Below are positions 1-24,494 of a stretch of DNA of 47,471 bases, in pieces (position 1 is the first letter of the stretch; every line of letters begins with the position of its first letter). The notes below the pieces were generated by a model. That model was not told where the DNA came from. It saw only the letters and a program-made list of their open reading frames with translations, and did not search any database. The DNA comes from a virus (Duplodnaviria > Heunggongvirae > Uroviricota > Caudoviricetes): IMG/VR virus record IMGVR_UViG_2541047941_000003, positions 1-47,471 of that record, one strand, 5' to 3'. The position numbers were made by a program, and so were the translations under genes.

Positions 1-1194
1 ATGATCACCGACACAAAGCTCAGGAAGGCGCTCGGCAAGAAAAGAGATGATATCGAGATTATTTCTGATTCGCACGGGCTCAACGCCAGAATCAGCCAGG
101 CCGGAAAAATATCATTTTTCTATCGGTATCGCTGGGCCGGTAAAGCGGTAAAACTCAATGTTGGTGATTATCCTGCAATGAGTATCACCCAGGCAAGAGA
201 GCGTCGCCAACAATTCAGAAACTGGTTAACTGAGGGACTGGATCCGCGAGAGCAGGTGAAGCTGGATAAGCAGACCCGACAGGAAGCGATGTCCGTTGCC
301 GAAGCGTTCAATTACTGGATTGAAAGGCACTGTATCGCTAACGGGCTAGTTAAAGTCGATTACTATCGCCAGGTGTTTGAGAAACATATCGCCGAACCGA
401 TGAAGAATGTCAAAGTCGATAACACAGCGAAAATGCACTGGATCAACGTCTTCGATTCTATAGAAAGCAGGGTGATGGCTCATTACATGCTTTCGCTGTG
501 CAAACGGGCGTTTAGGTTCTGCGTTAACAGAAGTGTGATCGCCTCAAACCCACTCGAGGGATTACTGCCATCTGATGTCGGGCAAAAGCCTAAAAAGAGA
601 ACTCGCAGGATGGACGATGACGATCTGCGCAAAATCTATCAGTGGTTGAAAAGCCATATGTCGATAGAGTCCGTTTTCCTGGTGAAATTTATTATGCTTA
701 CCGGATGCCGTACGGCTGAGATTCGACTTAGTGAGAGATCATGGTTTCGATTGGATGATAATGAGTGGGTCGTGCCTGCGGGCAGTTATAAAACTCGGGT
801 ACATATTAGAAGGGGACTCTCAGACGCCGCCGTTAACCTGGTCAGAAATCACCTCAAGAAAATAAACACCAATCACCTGGTGACTTCACAACGTAAAATT
901 GATGGCGGGATCAAAGATTCGCCCGTTCATTCACCTGTGGCATCCAATTACGCCCGTTCTATTTGGAATGGAACAGGTATGGCAGAGTGGTCGCTTCATG
1001 ATATGAGGCGGACGATAGCCACAAATCTCTCTGAGTTAGGTTGCCCGCCGCACGTAATTGAAAAGCTGCTCGGGCATCAGATGGTGGGGGTTATGGCGCA
1101 TTACAACCTTCATGACTATATCGATGATCAGAAACACTGGCTCCGCGTTTGGCAGAGCCATCTTGAAGAGATCATCGGAGAGCCCTTCAGTTAA
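1..1194 (+). CDS. int: Tyrosine recombinase / phage integrase (P4-like family)
   Basis: 397 aa ORF; C-terminal HDMRRT (HxxR) and [10 protein letters not shown] (catalytic Tyr) motifs typical of tyrosine integrases; N-terminal arm-type domain; ORF starts at window base 1. Confidence 0.85.
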
Positions 1195-20502: not shown

Positions 20503-20907
20503 ATGCAAATAGATCAAGAATACCTTAAAGGTTTGCTCGAGGCTTTCGAGGCATCGGATTCACCTGATACCGATATTATTCGATTAAAGGATTTAGGGTT
20601 CAATTGTGAAACTGACACATTTGTGTTTCATATGCGTTTGCTTGAGGATAGAGGGCTGATTATCAGGAGTGATGGGGAGCCCGGCTTTGGTGCTATTCAG
20701 TCTTTAGACGGAATGACTCACTGGGCTGTAATGCCCTTGCGATTGACCGCGATGGGGCATGACTTCTTGGATGCTCTCCGTAACAAAGAGGTTTGGGCAA
20801 CATTAAAAACCGGATTCAAAGATGCCAGTATGGGCACGCTGATGACAGTTTCGAAGGAGCTGTTTAACCGAGCTCTAGCTAAGCAACTTGATAAAATGTT
20901 CGACTAA
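20503..20907 (+). CDS. Hypothetical moron protein (134 aa)
   Basis: Lower-GC ORF between lysis and packaging modules with own terminator. Confidence 0.45.
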   Translation: MQIDQEYLKGLLEAFEASDSPDTDIIRLKDLGFNCETDTFVFHMRLLEDRGLIIRSDGEPGFGAIQSLDGMTHWAVMPLRLTAMGHDFLDALRNKEVWATLKTGFKDASMGTLMTVSKELFNRALAKQLDKMFD

Positions 20908-20929: not shown

Positions 20930-20983
20930 TGTCAACTTTATGAGCAAACTGATCTTAATTACTGTAACTAGGTGGTCAATGAT

Positions 20984-21625
20984 ATGGCAACGCTTAAGGA
21001 CCTTTCCAGTCAGTTAAGACAGCTGCAGAAGCAAATACCGTTTGCGACTGCCCAGGCTATGACTAAAGTGGTTCGCCAGATAGAAGCGGCCCAAAAAACA
21101 GCATTTGAGCGGAATCTGGATAATCCAACACCTTTTACAGTTAAATCGGTTGGGTCAGTTGGTGTCAGGAAAAACAGCCTTCGTGCGAAGGTGTTTGTTC
21201 GTGATACTGCTGCTGGTTACCTTGAACCCTTCGAGTTCGGCGGAGAGCACAAGCTTAATGGTAGTGCTTTGCTTAACCCGAAAGACATAAAGCTTAATAA
21301 ATACGGCAACCTGCCGCGTAATAAGCTCTCTCAGCTCAAAGCAAAGCCAAACGTATTTATTGGTGACGTTGGTGGCGTGAATGCCGTGTGGCAGAGAAAA
21401 AAGCCGAAAACCAAAAAAGGGAAGAAACGGGCAAAACGTTCTCCGAACGGCACGCGCAGAGACAAGATTAAGCAACCTGCACCAAAATTGCTCATTCGGT
21501 TTGGAGACTCGCTTCCAGTCAAACCAACGCTCGGCTATATGGACAGGGCAAACACCATGGCCAACGCATTGTTACCCTCAGCGCTGCACCAGGCGATTGC
21601 TGAGGCGATCAGCTCGGCCAGATAG
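20984..21625 (+). CDS. Hypothetical basic protein (Lys/Arg-rich segment), possibly DNA-binding
   Basis: 213 aa ORF upstream of terminase; KKPKTKKGKKRAKR tract. Confidence 0.4.
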   Translation: MATLKDLSSQLRQLQKQIPFATAQAMTKVVRQIEAAQKTAFERNLDNPTPFTVKSVGSVGVRKNSLRAKVFVRDTAAGYLEPFEFGGEHKLNGSALLNPKDIKLNKYGNLPRNKLSQLKAKPNVFIGDVGGVNAVWQRKKPKTKKGKKRAKRSPNGTRRDKIKQPAPKLLIRFGDSLPVKPTLGYMDRANTMANALLPSALHQAIAEAISSAR

Positions 21626-21714
21626 CCCCCCAGGGGTTTTGGGTCCTTCCTGAGCCTTTTGTAAGGCACGGGCATTGCGCGCCGCAGTGTTTTCCTAGCT
21701 ACAAACTTTTATTT

Positions 21715-21865
21715 TGTGTCCCATGTCCCACCCCAAGGGATCGCCAGCCACGCCAGAGCCAGCACGGATTATTCCATTTATTCCAGTGGGACATTCGTGT
21801 GGGACATTGAAAAAATGTCCCAGGTAAATGTCCCACCCCAAAAATGTCCCAGGTGATGTCCCATG
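21715..21865. repeat. Array of at least 8 copies of (A)TGTCCCA in both orientations; candidate cos/pac terminase-binding sites
   Basis: gtccca at 21718, 21725, 21818, 21831, 21846, 21859; inverted gtgggac at 21786 and 21798; last copy overlaps terminase small subunit start. Confidence 0.6.
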
Positions 21866-22426
21866 ACCACGATGAACCAGAGTCAGTACGCGCAACATTC
21901 AGGCGTCGATCGCAAGACTATTGGCCGATGGATCAAGGCTGGTCGGTTTATCGTCATGGATGGCGACCTGATTGATGTTGAGGCGAGCGATGCCGCGCTG
22001 AAGAAAAACCGTGATGGAAAAGATCCGCGGGCATCAAACGCGAAGAAGAAAAAAGCCCCAGCACCCCGGAATGATGGCGACGATGAAATTGATGAAACCG
22101 TTCGCCAGATAATGTTTACAGAAGGTGCAGTCCTTTCCAGGGAAGAGGCCGCGCGGATCCGTGAAAATTACATGGCCCTGCAGGCAAAGCTCCAGTATGA
22201 AAAAGACAGCGGCCAGACAATTGAATTGGCCATCGCCGAGGAGGTTCTGTTTAACGCCTTTCGCCAGCAGCGTGATGCCTGGCTGAACTGGCCTTCACGC
22301 GTGGCACCGCTGATAGCCGCCGATCTGAATGTGCCGGCGGACAGGATGACAGAGGTGCTGATTGAACATGTCCACAAACATATCTCAGTCCTCGGAGAAC
22401 CAGAGTTTAACCCAGCGGAAGATTGA
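21863..22426 (+). CDS. Terminase small subunit (Nu1-like, N-terminal HTH)
   Basis: 187 aa; HTH QYAQHSGVDRKTIGRWIKAG; precedes and overlaps terminase large subunit. Confidence 0.6.
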   Translation: MTTMNQSQYAQHSGVDRKTIGRWIKAGRFIVMDGDLIDVEASDAALKKNRDGKDPRASNAKKKKAPAPRNDGDDEIDETVRQIMFTEGAVLSREEAARIRENYMALQAKLQYEKDSGQTIELAIAEEVLFNAFRQQRDAWLNWPSRVAPLIAADLNVPADRMTEVLIEHVHKHISVLGEPEFNPAED

Positions 22427-24494
22427 GCGTCTTCAACTGAGTGTCCGGAAAGGGTGGACACCGCCGCCGCGGATCAGCGTCCCGCAATGGGCCGATGACT
22501 ACCGGAAGCTGGCGAAAGAAGCTGGCAGTACCTCCGGGAACTGGGAAACATCAACGGTTGAAATTGCCCGCGGTCCTATGCTGGCCGCGACGGAATCGGG
22601 CGTCCACATTATCACCGTGATGTGCTGTACCCAGTTAATGAAAACCGCGCTGCTGGAAAACCTGTTTGGTTATTTTGCGCACCTCGACCCATGTCCGATT
22701 TTGCTCCTGCAGCCGAAGGAAGAGGCCGCTGAGCAGTTTTCCAAAGAACGCATCAGCCCGCTGGTTAGGGTAACGCCAGTTCTGCGTAACATCATAGGTG
22801 ACTCAAAGCAGAAGAGTTCAAAAGAAACCATTCTGTATAAAGCTTTCACCGGCGGATTTCTGGCGCTGGCCGGCGCCGGTAGTCCAGATAACCTTGCGCG
22901 CCGTCCGATCCGTGTTCTGCTGGCAGATGAGGTGGATAAATATCCGATTACCCGTGAGGGCGATCCCATCGCTCTGGCGGAAGAGCGAACCGCCACATTT
23001 GGCCTTAACTGGCTGTCCGTGCGGGCTTGTTCGCCGACGGTCGAAGATGAAAGCCGGATTGCTGACAGTTACGAAGATTCAGATCAGCGGCGGGCCTCTG
23101 TAGTTTGCCCCCATTGCGGGCACCGACAGTTCCTTGATTTCTTCAAACATGTTCAATGGCCAAAAGAAGGTGATAAGCACCTGACCAAAGCGGCCATGAT
23201 CCATTGTGAATGTTGTGGTGCTGGCTGGTCAGAGGGTGAGCGTCTGCGGGCATTACAGACAATCCGCTGGCATCAGACCAAACCGTTTGAATGTTGTGGT
23301 TCCCGCCATTCACCATTAATGGAATACGACCAGAAATGGCATGAAGGAGACGAGGGCAGTGTTGATGCCGTCTGGCGCTGGTCAGAGTCGGAACGGCATG
23401 CCGTATACCGGGCGATTTGCCCGGACTGCGGGGCCGAGGCGCTGGATAATCACCACGCCGGGTACCAGGCGTCAAAACTCTTCAGTCCCTGGCAAAAAGA
23501 TAAGCCATCGGACATTGCAAAGAAATACCTCGATGCGAAAGGGGATCCGGATAAGGAACAGGCCTGGTGGAACACCCAGATGGGGTTGCCGCACCGGCCT
23601 AACCACGGGAAACAGCTCCCGGTTGATGTCCTGCTGGCGCGCCGTGAAGTCTTCCCGGCCGTCGTTCCTGATGGCGTGGCATTGTTAACTGCGGGCGTCG
23701 ATACCCAGGATGACCGATTCGAAATCACGATCACTGGCTGGGGGCGGGACGAGGAATCGTGGTCAGTTGCGCATGACGTCATTTATGGCGATCTGGAGAC
23801 TGAGGAACCCTGGAAGCGCCTCGATGCGTACCTGAAACAGATATGGCGACGCGGCGACGGGCGAGGGCTGAATATTCTGGCTGCATGTATGGACTCCGGC
23901 GGTCACCACACGCAAAAGGTTTATGAGTTCTGCAAAGATCGCCTTGGGCGCCGCGTCTGGGCTATCAAGGGCGAATCTGCGCAGGGTGGGAAACGCAACC
24001 CCGTCTGGCCAACCAAGCGACCGACATCGAAAAGTAAAGCCAGCTTCAGGCCAATTATACTTGGCGTGAACTCTGCGAAAGATGTTGTCCGTGGTCGTCT
24101 GCATCTTGAACCGCCAGCTTTAGGTACTGCCGGTGCGGGCTATATGCACTTCCCGGATGATCGTGACCTCGGATATTTCAACCAGCTGCTGGCCGAGCGA
24201 CTGGTTTATAAAGTGGTGGCCGGTCAGCGATTCAGTGTCTGGGAGCCTATCCCCGGACGGGCGAACGAAGCACTCGACTGCCTCGTTTACAGCTATGCCG
24301 CGTTGTGTGGGCTGAAACATATGGGATTAAAACTCAATGTTCGGGCCGCTAACCTTCAGGCCGATCCCGATAAGTTCCTGCCGGCGCCAGCCGAGCCAGA
24401 AGAAAAAATCAATTACGAATTACCGGGTGCCATCGTGGATGAGGCTATGGCTCCTGTTAAGCGTAAGAACATTTCTAAACTCCTGCCGCAATAA
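22362..24494 (+). CDS. Terminase large subunit (gpA-like)
   Basis: 710 aa; size, position and Cys-rich central region consistent with lambda A family. Confidence 0.8.
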   Translation: MNMSTNISQSSENQSLTQRKIERLQLSVRKGWTPPPRISVPQWADDYRKLAKEAGSTSGNWETSTVEIARGPMLAATESGVHIITVMCCTQLMKTALLENLFGYFAHLDPCPILLLQPKEEAAEQFSKERISPLVRVTPVLRNIIGDSKQKSSKETILYKAFTGGFLALAGAGSPDNLARRPIRVLLADEVDKYPITREGDPIALAEERTATFGLNWLSVRACSPTVEDESRIADSYEDSDQRRASVVCPHCGHRQFLDFFKHVQWPKEGDKHLTKAAMIHCECCGAGWSEGERLRALQTIRWHQTKPFECCGSRHSPLMEYDQKWHEGDEGSVDAVWRWSESERHAVYRAICPDCGAEALDNHHAGYQASKLFSPWQKDKPSDIAKKYLDAKGDPDKEQAWWNTQMGLPHRPNHGKQLPVDVLLARREVFPAVVPDGVALLTAGVDTQDDRFEITITGWGRDEESWSVAHDVIYGDLETEEPWKRLDAYLKQIWRRGDGRGLNILAACMDSGGHHTQKVYEFCKDRLGRRVWAIKGESAQGGKRNPVWPTKRPTSKSKASFRPIILGVNSAKDVVRGRLHLEPPALGTAGAGYMHFPDDRDLGYFNQLLAERLVYKVVAGQRFSVWEPIPGRANEALDCLVYSYAALCGLKHMGLKLNVRAANLQADPDKFLPAPAEPEEKINYELPGAIVDEAMAPVKRKNISKLLPQ

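What the first reader, a model, noticed from the sequence alone, without database searches (positions are those of the whole stretch)
21715..21865. Dense array of TGTCCCA motifs in both orientations upstream of and overlapping the terminase small subunit start
At least six direct and two inverted copies of (A)TGTCCCA occur within ~150 bp of non-coding DNA, the last spanning the small terminase ATG. This is not CRISPR-like and is not explained by coding sequence. It resembles cosB/pac-type binding-site arrays for the HTH-containing small terminase and may also autoregulate terminase translation.
Basis: partly seen in the sequence, partly recalled or inferred. Interest (0 to 1): 0.45.

Follow-up and report, generated by a model that had tools for sequence, protein, structure and literature searches.

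The report
Heptamer-array packaging site (cosB) of prophage
The eight TGTCCCA repeats are very probably the landing pad that this E. coli prophage's small terminase uses to recognise its own DNA next to the cutting site for packaging: a lambda-style cosB built from short heptamers. Related phages swap the heptamer together with the DNA-binding domain of the terminase.

Summary
Eight of the nine TGTCCCA copies in the window lie in 21717-21863: six direct and two inverted, the last overlapping the terS ATG. Chance probability is about 3e-19.

The array sits in the cosB position of a lambda-type cos site. GGGTCCT, identical to the lambda cosQ heptamer, lies at 21641-21647. The 12-mer GCATTGCGCGCC at 21672-21683 is identical to the experimentally mapped 5' cohesive end of the related Serratia phage BZS1. 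Counted from the cohesive end, the heptamer groups fall where lambda has R3(+), R2(-) and R1(+), and terS starts at bp 192 (lambda Nu1 at 191).

In relatives the heptamers are conserved while the spacers drift. The heptamer sequence switches with the N-terminal winged-HTH domain of TerS only:
- TGTCCCA goes with DBD type A and GGTAACA with type B, in 79 of 79 unique loci.
- About six further DBD/heptamer pairs occur in other Proteobacteria.
- The TerS C-terminal domain, TerL and the upstream genes do not track the heptamer.

Satellite-like islands carry the same cosQ, cosN and heptamer array with no adjacent terS.

No IHF site, promoter or conserved RNA element was found, and translational autoregulation has no support. 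I judge this a new variant of a known kind. I found no description in the papers searched. Binding itself was not tested.

The parts
21641..21647 (+). cosQ-like heptamer GGGTCCT
   Evidence: Identical to the GGGTCCT that lies 30 nt before the right end of lambda DNA. Invariant in 33 unique close relatives and present as GGGTCC[TC] in all heptamer classes. That this lambda heptamer is cosQ rests on my own knowledge; PMC4669245 says only that the 7-bp cosQ is highly conserved.
21672..21683 (+). cosN: predicted 12-nt 5' cohesive end GCATTGCGCGCC, with nicks at 21671/21672 (top strand) and 21683/21684 (bottom strand); uncertainty of 1 nt
   Evidence: Identical to the cohesive end of Serratia phage vB_SspM_BZS1, mapped with PhageTerm and end sequencing (PMC7556043). 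The GenBank record starts with it and annotates it as cosL. The lambda register and its conserved 'CG|' nick rule would place the overhang at 21671-21682.
21684..21716 (+). cosN-to-first-heptamer spacer, with conserved TAGCTA (21696-21701) and an A/T-rich run
   Evidence: About 90% column conservation in close relatives. (T/C)AGCTA and an A/T-rich run recur in all heptamer classes. Lambda has CGCTAT plus an A/T-rich run at the same place.
21717..21730 (+). Heptamers 1 and 2, tandem TGTCCCATGTCCCA (bp 46-59 from the cohesive end): the R3 equivalent
   Evidence: The lambda R3 core CGTTTCC lies at bp 53-59 and N15 R3 at bp 48-59. A first group starts at bp 45-47 in classes A-D and in both layouts.
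21731..21786 (.). 56-bp spacer between the R3-like and R2-like groups, including a conserved TTATTCCA doublet (21769-21776, 21778-21785)
   Evidence: Same length as the lambda R3-R2 spacer. Poorly conserved apart from TTTATTCCA next to heptamer 3. No IHF consensus at one mismatch or fewer, although the same scan finds lambda I1.
21787..21806 (-). Heptamers 3 and 4, inverted (TGGGACA at 21787 and 21800; bp 116-122 and 129-135): the R2 equivalent
   Evidence: The lambda R2 core lies at bp 114-120 on the minus strand.
21816..21863 (+). Heptamers 5-8, direct (21816, 21829, 21845, 21857; bp 145-192): the R1 equivalent. AGGTGA (21851-21856), a likely SD, lies between heptamers 7 and 8, and heptamer 8 ends on the A of the ATG.
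   Evidence: The lambda R1 core lies at bp 155-161. Class B1 relatives have the same layout (GGTGA-GGTAACA-ATG).
21863..22426 (+). terS, small terminase (187 aa): winged-HTH DNA-binding domain at about residues 1-51, disordered linker 52-72, helical core and C-terminal domain
22362..24494 (+). terL, gpA-type large terminase (start codon uncertain)
   Evidence: Pfam GpA_ATPase 9e-66 and GpA_nuclease 3e-81. TerL type tracks the TerS C-terminal type, not the heptamer.

Best explanation
The TGTCCCA array is the cosB subsite of a lambda-type cos site (cosQ 21641-21647, cosN 21672-21683, cosB 21717-21863). Each heptamer (extended form R-TGTCCCA) is most likely bound by one N-terminal winged-HTH domain of the small terminase encoded immediately downstream. 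By occupying the tandem pair at bp 46-59, the inverted pair at bp 116-135 and the four direct copies at bp 145-192, TerS would anchor the TerS-TerL holoenzyme next to cosN. TerL could then make the staggered nicks 34-45 bp away, and the complex would stay on the left end to start packaging, as in lambda Complex I. The heptamer sequence sets packaging specificity. Shown here: the anatomy, the positional homology, the conservation, and the co-variation with the TerS DNA-binding domain. Inferred: the physical binding, one domain per heptamer, and the nick positions in this prophage.
For: (1) Position. GCATTGCGCGCC at 21672-21683 is identical to the experimentally mapped 12-nt 5' cohesive end of phage BZS1, whose genome map matches this window: lambda-like head genes, Mu-like tail genes, and Q followed by a lysis cassette upstream of cos. 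GGGTCCT lies 30-31 nt upstream, as in lambda.
(2) Collinearity with lambda, counted from bp 1 of the cohesive end. The heptamers lie at 46-59(+), 116-135(-) and 145-192(+), and terS starts at bp 192. Lambda has R cores at 53-59(+), 114-120(-) and 155-161(+), and Nu1 starts at bp 191.
(3) Selection on the heptamers. In 33 unique close relatives, 6 of 56 heptamer columns vary against 59 of 91 other columns in the array (Fisher p = 3e-11). More distant class-A phages have unrelated spacers but keep 6-9 heptamers.
(4) Specificity swap. Phages with the same cosQ, cosN and upstream genes carry GGTAACA in the same 2(+)/2(-)/3-4(+) layout.
(5) Natural domain swaps. TerS is a mosaic of N-domain type A or B and C-domain type X or Y, and all four combinations exist. 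The heptamer follows the N-domain in 44 of 44 and 35 of 35 unique loci. The C-domain follows the TerL type.
(6) The upstream DUF2513 protein has the same accession, and the 213-aa protein is 97.7-99.5% identical, in class A and class B phages.
(7) An independent scan of genomes with the TerS profile, not baited on cosN, found about six further DBD/heptamer pairs, including GTTCGCA, GTCCGCA, GTGCGCA, GTTTGCA, GGTTTCA and CCGCAAC. In 55 of 76 loci some heptamer occurs at least 5 times around the terS start.
(9) Satellite-like islands carry cosQ, a cosN variant and 7-10 TGTCCCA heptamers with no adjacent terS. They encode, 2-4 kb away, a TerS-like protein with a class-A-like DNA-binding domain.
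Against: No binding, footprint or virion-end data exist for this prophage or for any TGTCCCA-class phage. cosN is assigned by identity to a relative, and the nick position is uncertain by 1 nt. No IHF core site was found where lambda has I1, so how the R3-like and R2-like groups would be brought together is unknown. TerS does not match Pfam Phage_Nu1, and its profile similarity to gpNu1 is weak (hhalign E 0.002, probability 13%). The structure model has only moderate confidence (pLDDT 71.6, pTM 0.29). The loci compared are related sequences, so the counts are not independent events, and the viral-contig set was baited with the cosN 18-mer. Some family members show no clear heptamer array (for example L017, L049, L085, and the VSRQAVLNWKREG and CDVKQVRRAIERG DNA-binding-domain types).
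Confidence: 0.85

Rival explanations
1. The array is an operator or promoter element. A phage or host transcription factor, or TerS acting as a repressor, would bind the repeats to control transcription of terS-terL and the late operon, including the reader's idea of autoregulation at the start codon.
For: The last copies flank the likely SD and overlap the ATG. Winged-HTH proteins of this fold, such as BldC, Xis and AlpA, regulate through arrays of direct repeats. Any TerS bound here could act as a roadblock.
Against: There is no sigma-70-like promoter on the + strand in 21626-21862. The relative BZS1 has a Q antiterminator and a lysis cassette upstream, so terS is probably read through from a late promoter as in lambda. 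The first heptamer group is fixed relative to cosN (bp 45-59), not to the gene start, which moves from bp 192 to bp 74 in short-layout relatives. Satellite islands keep the array with no gene behind it. The upstream genes do not co-vary with the heptamer. A regulatory side effect of TerS binding is not excluded.
Confidence: 0.07
2. The repeats act at the RNA level. The inverted copies would form a hairpin in the late transcript that controls terS translation or mRNA stability.
For: The RNA 21684-21890 folds better than shuffles (MFE -55.9 kcal/mol, z = -2.9), with a stem made from heptamers 3 and 4 pairing with 5 and 6.
Against: The stem is the automatic consequence of inverted binding sites. 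Only the heptamers pair, not the 6-nt spacers between them. The SD and AUG are unpaired in the centroid structure. Short-layout relatives have no inverted copy upstream of the ATG. Heptamers 1 and 2 and 7 and 8 are equally conserved but lie outside the stem. The satellite arrays are not followed by a gene.
Confidence: 0.03
3. The repeats are iterons of a replication origin or sites for a recombinase or partition protein that happen to lie near terS.
For: Dense arrays of short direct and inverted repeats are typical of iterons and of parS or recombination sites.
Against: The heptamer co-varies with the TerS N-domain only. In BZS1 the replication genes (O-like) and a ParB-like gene lie elsewhere. 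The array position is locked to cosN across classes.
Confidence: 0.02

Closest known systems
Bacteriophage lambda cos (cosQ-cosN-cosB with R3-I1-R2-R1), and the lambda versus phage 21 packaging-specificity pair
   Same: Same order and almost the same coordinates: the cosQ heptamer is identical and lies 30-31 nt before the nick, the overhang is a 12-nt 5' end, the repeat groups run +/-/+ at about bp 53-59, 114-135 and 145-192, and terS starts at bp 191/192. TerS has an N-terminal winged HTH and a C-terminal region that follows TerL, and TerL is gpA-type. As with lambda and 21, relatives share cosQ and cosN but differ in cosB and in the TerS recognition domain (PMC4669245).
   Different: The repeat units are 7-8 bp and present in 8 copies, as doublets or a quartet, rather than three 16-bp R sites. 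The tandem pair is spaced by 7 bp. No IHF consensus lies between the R3-like and R2-like groups. The cohesive-end sequence differs (GCATTGCGCGCC versus GGGCGGCGACCT). TerS is not a Pfam Phage_Nu1 member.
Phage N15 'simple' cosB versus Monarch 'complex' cosB (Feiss et al. 2015, PMC4669245)
   Same: The same dichotomy exists in this family. Long-layout phages, including this window, have all sites upstream of terS. Short-layout relatives (BZS1, phiNP) keep only the R3-position group before an early ATG (bp 74; N15 gene 1 starts at bp 89) and have an inverted copy about 200 bp downstream inside terS, like N15 rR2 at bp 249-260.
   Different: The window itself has the complex layout. In short-layout relatives the internal sites are a whole cluster (one inverted plus 3-6 direct) encoded in the TerS linker, not a single rR2.
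Serratia phage vB_SspM_BZS1 and Citrobacter phage phiNP (nearest sequenced phages)
   Same: Same cosQ and cosN; the BZS1 cohesive end was mapped experimentally. Same gene order and the same TerS family.
   Different: They belong to the GGTAACA class with the short layout and a Y-type TerS C-domain. TerS is 30-33% identical to the window protein over the matched part. The BZS1 paper describes neither repeats nor cosB.
Multi-site pac regions (SPP1 pacL/pacR; phage P1 pac with seven TGATCA/G hexamers)
   Same: Several short TerS recognition elements flank the cleavage site (SPP1 as summarised in PMC4669245 and PMC9611059; P1 from my own knowledge).
   Different: Those are headful (pac) systems with imprecise cuts and terminal redundancy. 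Here TerL is gpA-type and a relative has defined cohesive ends.
E. coli PICI cos sites used with Rpp (Fillol-Salom 2019; PMC9026076)
   Same: Satellites carry helper-like cosQ and cosN at the end of the island. The islands found here (L212, L213) do the same for this phage family.
   Different: Published PICI cos sites lack repeated R sequences and rely on Rpp to retarget the helper TerS. The islands here keep the helper-type TGTCCCA array and encode their own TerS-like protein with a class-A-like DNA-binding domain.

Membership tests
lambda-type cos site (cosQ-cosN-cosB) | cosN nicked to give 12-nt 5' cohesive ends | not testable with these tools
   No virion DNA is available. Indirect support: 21672-21683 is identical to the mapped 12-nt 5' end of phage BZS1.
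lambda-type cos site (cosQ-cosN-cosB) | Conserved 7-bp cosQ about 30 bp upstream of the nick | tested here: met
   GGGTCCT at 21641-21647 lies 30-31 nt before the predicted nick and is identical to the lambda heptamer 30 nt before its right end. It is invariant in relatives.
lambda-type cos site (cosQ-cosN-cosB) | Repeated TerS recognition sequences between cosN and terS in +, -, + orientation, the first at about bp 48-65 | tested here: met
   The heptamers lie at bp 46-59(+), 116-135(-) and 145-192(+); the lambda cores lie at 53-59(+), 114-120(-) and 155-161(+).
lambda-type cos site (cosQ-cosN-cosB) | IHF site (I1) between R3 and R2 (complex cosB) | tested here: not met
   WATCAANNNNTTR with at most one mismatch gives no hit in bp 1-200 of the window or in most relatives. 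The same scan finds lambda I1 at bp 79. This is a simple consensus scan only.
lambda-type cos site (cosQ-cosN-cosB) | Recognition sequence co-varies with the TerS recognition domain (packaging specificity) | tested here: met
   DBD type A goes with TGTCCCA in 44 of 44 unique loci and type B with GGTAACA in 35 of 35, independent of the C-domain and TerL type. About six further pairs were found.
lambda-type cos site (cosQ-cosN-cosB) | TerS physically binds the repeats and this is needed for cos cleavage and packaging | not testable with these tools
   This needs EMSA or footprinting and packaging genetics.
lambda-type terminase | gpA-family large subunit directly downstream of terS and overlapping it | tested here: met
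   Pfam GpA_ATPase 9e-66 and GpA_nuclease 3e-81; the ORF 22362-24494 overlaps terS.
lambda-type terminase | TerS with an N-terminal winged-HTH DNA-binding domain of the gpNu1 type (fold) | tested here: met
Pfam Phage_Nu1 (PF07471) | Sequence match to the family model above the gathering score | tested here: not met
   No hit even at E <= 10, whereas lambda Nu1 scores 333 bits. hhalign of the TerS profile against Nu1 gives E 0.002 and probability 13%, N-terminus only. No PDB sequence hit.
pac site of a headful packaging phage | Headful-type terminase with imprecise series-initiating cuts and no fixed cohesive ends | tested here: not met
   TerL is of the gpA (cos) family. The cosN 12-mer is identical to a mapped cohesive end, and cosQ is present.
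N15-type simple cosB | A single R3 before an early terS start, plus a remote inverted copy inside terS | tested here: not met
   The window has all eight sites upstream of an ATG at bp 192, and no further copy with at most one mismatch in terS. The feature is met by the short-layout relatives BZS1 and phiNP.
Replication-origin iterons | Repeats co-vary with, and lie in or next to, the initiator gene | tested here: not met
   The repeats co-vary with the TerS N-domain and are locked to cosN. In BZS1 the replication genes lie elsewhere.

The most novel reading that the evidence does not exclude
This TerS family (phrog_57, no Pfam model) may use a simple, readable recognition code: one winged-HTH domain binds one heptamer, and about eight natural DBD/heptamer pairs are already visible. 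The cosB arrays hold roughly eight sites, which would let every DNA-binding domain of an oligomeric terminase engage DNA at once; a [TerS2:TerL1]4 assembly has eight such domains. That would make the family a tractable model for how TerS oligomers wrap or loop DNA, and possibly a reprogrammable packaging signal. In addition, a previously undescribed type of satellite would exploit the system by carrying the helper-type heptamer array together with its own TerS-like protein, rather than an Rpp-type adaptor.
Probability: 0.3. Interest if true: 0.7.

Novelty: new variant of a known kind. Interest (0 to 1): 0.5.

Why it matters
How small terminases recognise viral DNA is still described as unclear and controversial (review PMC9611059). 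Specific binding has been hard to show outside lambda. This family offers several things that help:
- An unusually legible case: short exact heptamers in a fixed geometry next to a mapped cosN.
- Natural N-domain and C-domain swaps, which separate DNA recognition from TerL binding.
- Several DBD/heptamer pairs that differ by one or two bases and a few residues (GTTCGCA, GTCCGCA, GTGCGCA, GTTTGCA).

These features make the specificity determinants, the stoichiometry and the role of multi-site arrays directly testable.

On the practical side, the finding gives the cos site and the predicted genome ends for a widespread group of Enterobacterales prophages whose TerS is annotated 'hypothetical protein'; 63 of 5,426 complete E. 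coli genomes carry this intergenic region. It also gives a rule for predicting which prophages, satellites and cosmids can be packaged by which terminase.

Tried and rejected
- IHF site between the R3-like and R2-like groups: none found by the consensus scan, although lambda I1 is found.
- Promoter in the array: none on the + strand.
- RNA element: a hairpin with z = -2.9 exists, but it is explained by the inverted sites, is absent in short-layout relatives and leaves the SD and AUG free.
- Genome-wide avoidance of the cognate heptamer. The window has only one copy outside cos, but non-cognate heptamers are equally scarce, a higher-order Markov model expects 2.0, and BZS1 shows no GGTAACA depletion. 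Rejected.
- Upstream genes as the cognate binder. The DUF2513 protein has the same accession, and the 213-aa protein is 97.7-99.5% identical, in phages with different heptamers. Rejected.
- Pfam and PDB sequence searches for TerS: nothing.
- DNA search of GenBank phages with 21400-22500: only a 187-bp match in phiNP, in the upstream ORF.
- Literature searches for the repeats and for repeat-type cosB: nothing relevant. The BZS1 paper mentions neither cosB nor the repeats.
- Coding explanation for the array (46-aa ORF 21716-21856): rejected because the spacers diverge freely and carry 1-nt indels in relatives.

Full report
OBSERVATION. Exact TGTCCCA occurs nine times in the window on both strands, and eight copies lie in 21717-21863. 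The + copies are at 21717, 21724, 21816, 21829, 21845 and 21857, and the - copies at 21787 and 21800. Shuffles give 5.9 copies for the whole window, so about 0.018 are expected in 147 bp, and P(>=8) is about 3e-19. The 8-mer ATGTCCCA occurs seven times exactly, all inside the array. Across 361 sites in 48 unique related arrays the base before the heptamer is A (82%) or G (16%), so the unit is R-TGTCCCA. The stretch is intergenic (21626-21862). The last copy ends on the A of the ATG of ORF 21863-22426.

CONTEXT. ORF 21863-22426 (187 aa) has no Pfam family and no PDB sequence relative. It does match PHROG phrog_57 'terminase small subunit' (E 2.6e-34). It overlaps a gpA-type large terminase, which is followed by gpW and a lambda-type portal. 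Upstream lie holin, lysozyme and Rz genes, a DUF2513 gene and a 217-aa ORF. The region belongs to an E. coli prophage: 63 of 5,426 complete E. coli genomes contain the intergenic segment at 60-99% identity.

THE cos SITE. A full-text search for the GC-rich 12-mer found the paper on Serratia temperate myovirus vB_SspM_BZS1. Its 5' cohesive end was determined with PhageTerm and end sequencing as GCATTGCGCGCC (PMC7556043). The GenBank record begins with that 12-mer, annotated cosL, and ends with ...ATGGGTCCTTCC...GCACGG. The window carries the identical 12-mer at 21672-21683, preceded by GGGTCCTTCC at 21641. BZS1 also has the same gene order: terS, terL, gpW, portal, Mu-like tail genes, and Q plus a lysis cassette upstream of cos.

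Fetching the lambda ends showed that GGGTCCT lies 30 nt before the lambda right end. That heptamer is cosQ to my knowledge; PMC4669245 says only that the 7-bp cosQ is highly conserved. The 12-nt overhang and the following CGC...TTTTC also line up with the window sequence. The lambda register and its conserved 'CG|' nick rule would put the overhang one base to the left, at 21671-21682. I therefore give the nick positions an uncertainty of 1 nt.

COLLINEARITY WITH LAMBDA cosB. Positions are counted from the first base of the cohesive end. The window heptamers lie at bp 46-52 and 53-59 (+), 116-122 and 129-135 (-), and 145-151, 158-164, 174-180 and 186-192 (+). terS starts at bp 192. In lambda the repeated core CGTTTCC lies at 53-59 (+, R3), 114-120 (-, R2) and 155-161 (+, R1), and Nu1 starts at bp 191. 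Feiss et al. place N15 R3 at bp 48-59 and stress that the cosN-to-R3 distance is critical. The array is thus a cosB in which each R site is replaced by a doublet, or by a quartet, of heptamers.

CONSERVATION. I scanned viral contigs with the cosN 18-mer, so cosN conservation in that set is by construction, and I also used the E. coli hits. This gave 33 unique close relatives. Only 6 of 56 heptamer columns vary, against 59 of 91 other columns within the array (Fisher p = 3e-11). cosQ is invariant. More distant class-A phages (L020, L029, L031, L089, L106 and others) have unrelated spacer sequences but keep the tandem pair at bp 46-59 and 6-9 heptamers in all.

SPECIFICITY SWAP AND NATURAL DOMAIN SWAPS. 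E. coli ES2 (L002) is 99% identical to the window up to 21709. From there it carries GGTAACA/TGTTACC in the same 2(+)/2(-)/3(+) layout, with the last copy abutting the ATG, and it has a different TerS. An alignment of TerS proteins shows a mosaic. The N-domain is either type A (YAxHxGV[DN]RKT...RW[IV]KAG) or type B (FAxLHGVSRKTVTxWKxRGW). The C-domain is either type X (NWPSRVA...) or type Y (AIAPEHGP...), and all four combinations occur. Among unique loci the heptamer follows the N-domain without exception: A with TGTCCCA in 44 of 44 and B with GGTAACA in 35 of 35, whichever C-domain is present. The C-domain follows the TerL type instead: X pairs with window-type TerL (79-100% identity) and Y with BZS1-type TerL (73-100%).

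The upstream genes do not co-vary with the heptamer. The DUF2513 protein has the same accession in class A and class B phages. The 213-aa protein is 97.7-99.5% identical between the classes. By contrast TerS residues 1-52 are 46% identical between the classes and 100% identical within class A.

OTHER CLASSES. A genome-wide scan with the TerS profile, independent of cosN, found the same principle in Burkholderiales, Xanthomonadales, Sphingomonadales and other orders:
- CSDTLVRRA goes with GTTCGCA.
- C[DS][ED]K[QL]VRRA goes with GTCCGCA.
- CSEGLVRRA goes with GTGCGCA.
- VSDTLVHRA goes with GTTTGCA.
- VSHTAVxKW goes with GGTTTCA.
- ASRQAAxKW goes with CCGCAAC.

In 55 of 76 loci some heptamer occurs at least five times within 680 bp around the terS start; mononucleotide shuffles of the same regions peaked at 3-7 copies, mostly 4-5, so the threshold of five is not far above chance. 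A minority of loci show no clear array.

SATELLITES. Two weak E. coli hits turned out to be cos sites with no terminase gene beside them, each at the end of an integrase- and primase-bearing island. Neither island has capsid or TerL genes. One is in E. coli EC12 next to tRNA-Ile and the other in 2015C-4136CT1 next to thiM. Each site has GGGTCCT, the cosN variant GCATTGCGCGAG and 7-10 TGTCCCA/TGGGACA heptamers, and no gene follows it. Each island encodes, 2-4 kb away, a 177-aa TerS-like protein whose DNA-binding domain resembles class A (DYARHAGVTRTTVYKWLKA). That gene is preceded by a 118-aa protein resembling only the Y-type TerS C-terminal half. This shows that the array is kept as a cis-acting site independent of terS expression. 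It also suggests a hijacking route different from the published Rpp-dependent PICIs, whose cos sites lack repeated R sequences.

RIVALS. No promoter-like site lies on the + strand in the array. The RNA hairpin (z = -2.9) is made only of the inverted heptamers, leaves the SD and AUG unpaired, and has no counterpart in short-layout relatives. In those relatives (BZS1, phiNP and many contigs) the first heptamer group stays at bp 47-72 while the ATG moves to bp 74. The inverted and direct copies then lie inside the terS linker region, where they encode GNK-type repeats. The array is therefore anchored to cosN, not to the gene start. This parallels the N15 (simple, with rR2 inside gene 1) versus Monarch (complex) cosB dichotomy. 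Translational autoregulation is unsupported, although a side effect of bound TerS on transcription cannot be excluded. Genome-wide avoidance of the cognate heptamer was tested and rejected. No IHF core site was found.

VERDICT. The array is best explained as cosB, the small-terminase recognition subsite of a lambda-type cos (confidence 0.85). Its anatomy is new:
- eight 7-8-bp units in a 2/2/4 arrangement;
- no recognisable IHF site;
- a TerS outside the Nu1 family;
- a family-wide heptamer/DNA-binding-domain code;
- long and short layouts;
- satellites that carry the array.

I found no description of it in the papers searched. It is a new variant of a known kind. It would not surprise a packaging specialist in principle, but it is a clean and testable system. 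Direct binding, stoichiometry and the virion ends remain to be shown.

Noticed in passing
L003 2518-2760 (E. coli EC12, island L212 3054-18619); L213 9010-9260 (E. coli 2015C-4136CT1): A cos site with no terminase gene beside it (GGGTCCT, GCATTGCGCGAG and 7-10 TGTCCCA heptamers) lies at the end of integrase/Icd/primase/PerC islands that have no capsid or TerL genes. Each island encodes, 2-4 kb from cos, a 177-aa TerS-like protein with a class-A-like DNA-binding domain, preceded by a 118-aa protein resembling only the TerS C-terminal half. These look like phage satellites that exploit this packaging specificity by a route unlike the published Rpp PICIs.
   Followed up: partly
L128 (BZS1) bp 47-72 and 217-302; also L011, L012, L014, L030, L046, L066: In the 'short' cosB layout only the first heptamer group precedes terS (ATG at bp 74). 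One inverted and 3-6 direct heptamers are embedded in the terS linker at a 12-nt period, so the DNA sites are read as GNK/GNR peptide repeats. This is a dual-use coding region, analogous to N15 rR2.
   Followed up: partly
window 21863-22426 and relatives: TerS is a recombinational mosaic. Two N-domain types and two C-domain types occur in all four combinations. The C-domain type always matches the TerL type (window-type or BZS1-type, about 40% identical over the first 400 residues compared).
   Followed up: yes
window 21769-21785: The direct doublet TTATTCCA-N-TTATTCCA lies immediately 5' of inverted heptamer 3. TTTATTCCA is invariant in the 33 close relatives but absent in other subgroups. 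No explanation; it could be a host-factor site or a bend.
   Followed up: no
window 20972-21625 (and 20503-20907): A 217-aa ORF (phrog_1924 'minor tail protein', homologue of BZS1 p72) and a DUF2513 gene sit between the lysis cassette and cos, far from the tail genes. The BZS1 authors also noted this conserved position. Their function is unknown, and they do not co-vary with the heptamer.
   Followed up: partly
L001 (E. coli HS NC_009800.1 2077552-2083824): In E. coli HS the prophage appears truncated just upstream of cos. An integrase fragment abuts a partial copy of the 217-aa ORF, while cos, terS and terL are intact (98.5% identity to the window array).
   Followed up: no
window 21670-21684: There is a one-base discrepancy between the BZS1-mapped overhang (GCATTGCGCGCC, 21672-21683) and the register expected from lambda spacing and its conserved CG| nick rule (GGCATTGCGCGC, 21671-21682).
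   Followed up: partly
L017, L049, L085 (GC-rich viral contigs); L159, L174, L210, L188, L189, L193: Some relatives have the same cosQ and cosN or the same TerS family but show no obvious heptamer array (DNA-binding-domain types GISQQAVSDLLRR, VSRQAVLNWKREG, CDVKQVRRAIERG). Their recognition sites may be degenerate or organised differently.
   Followed up: no
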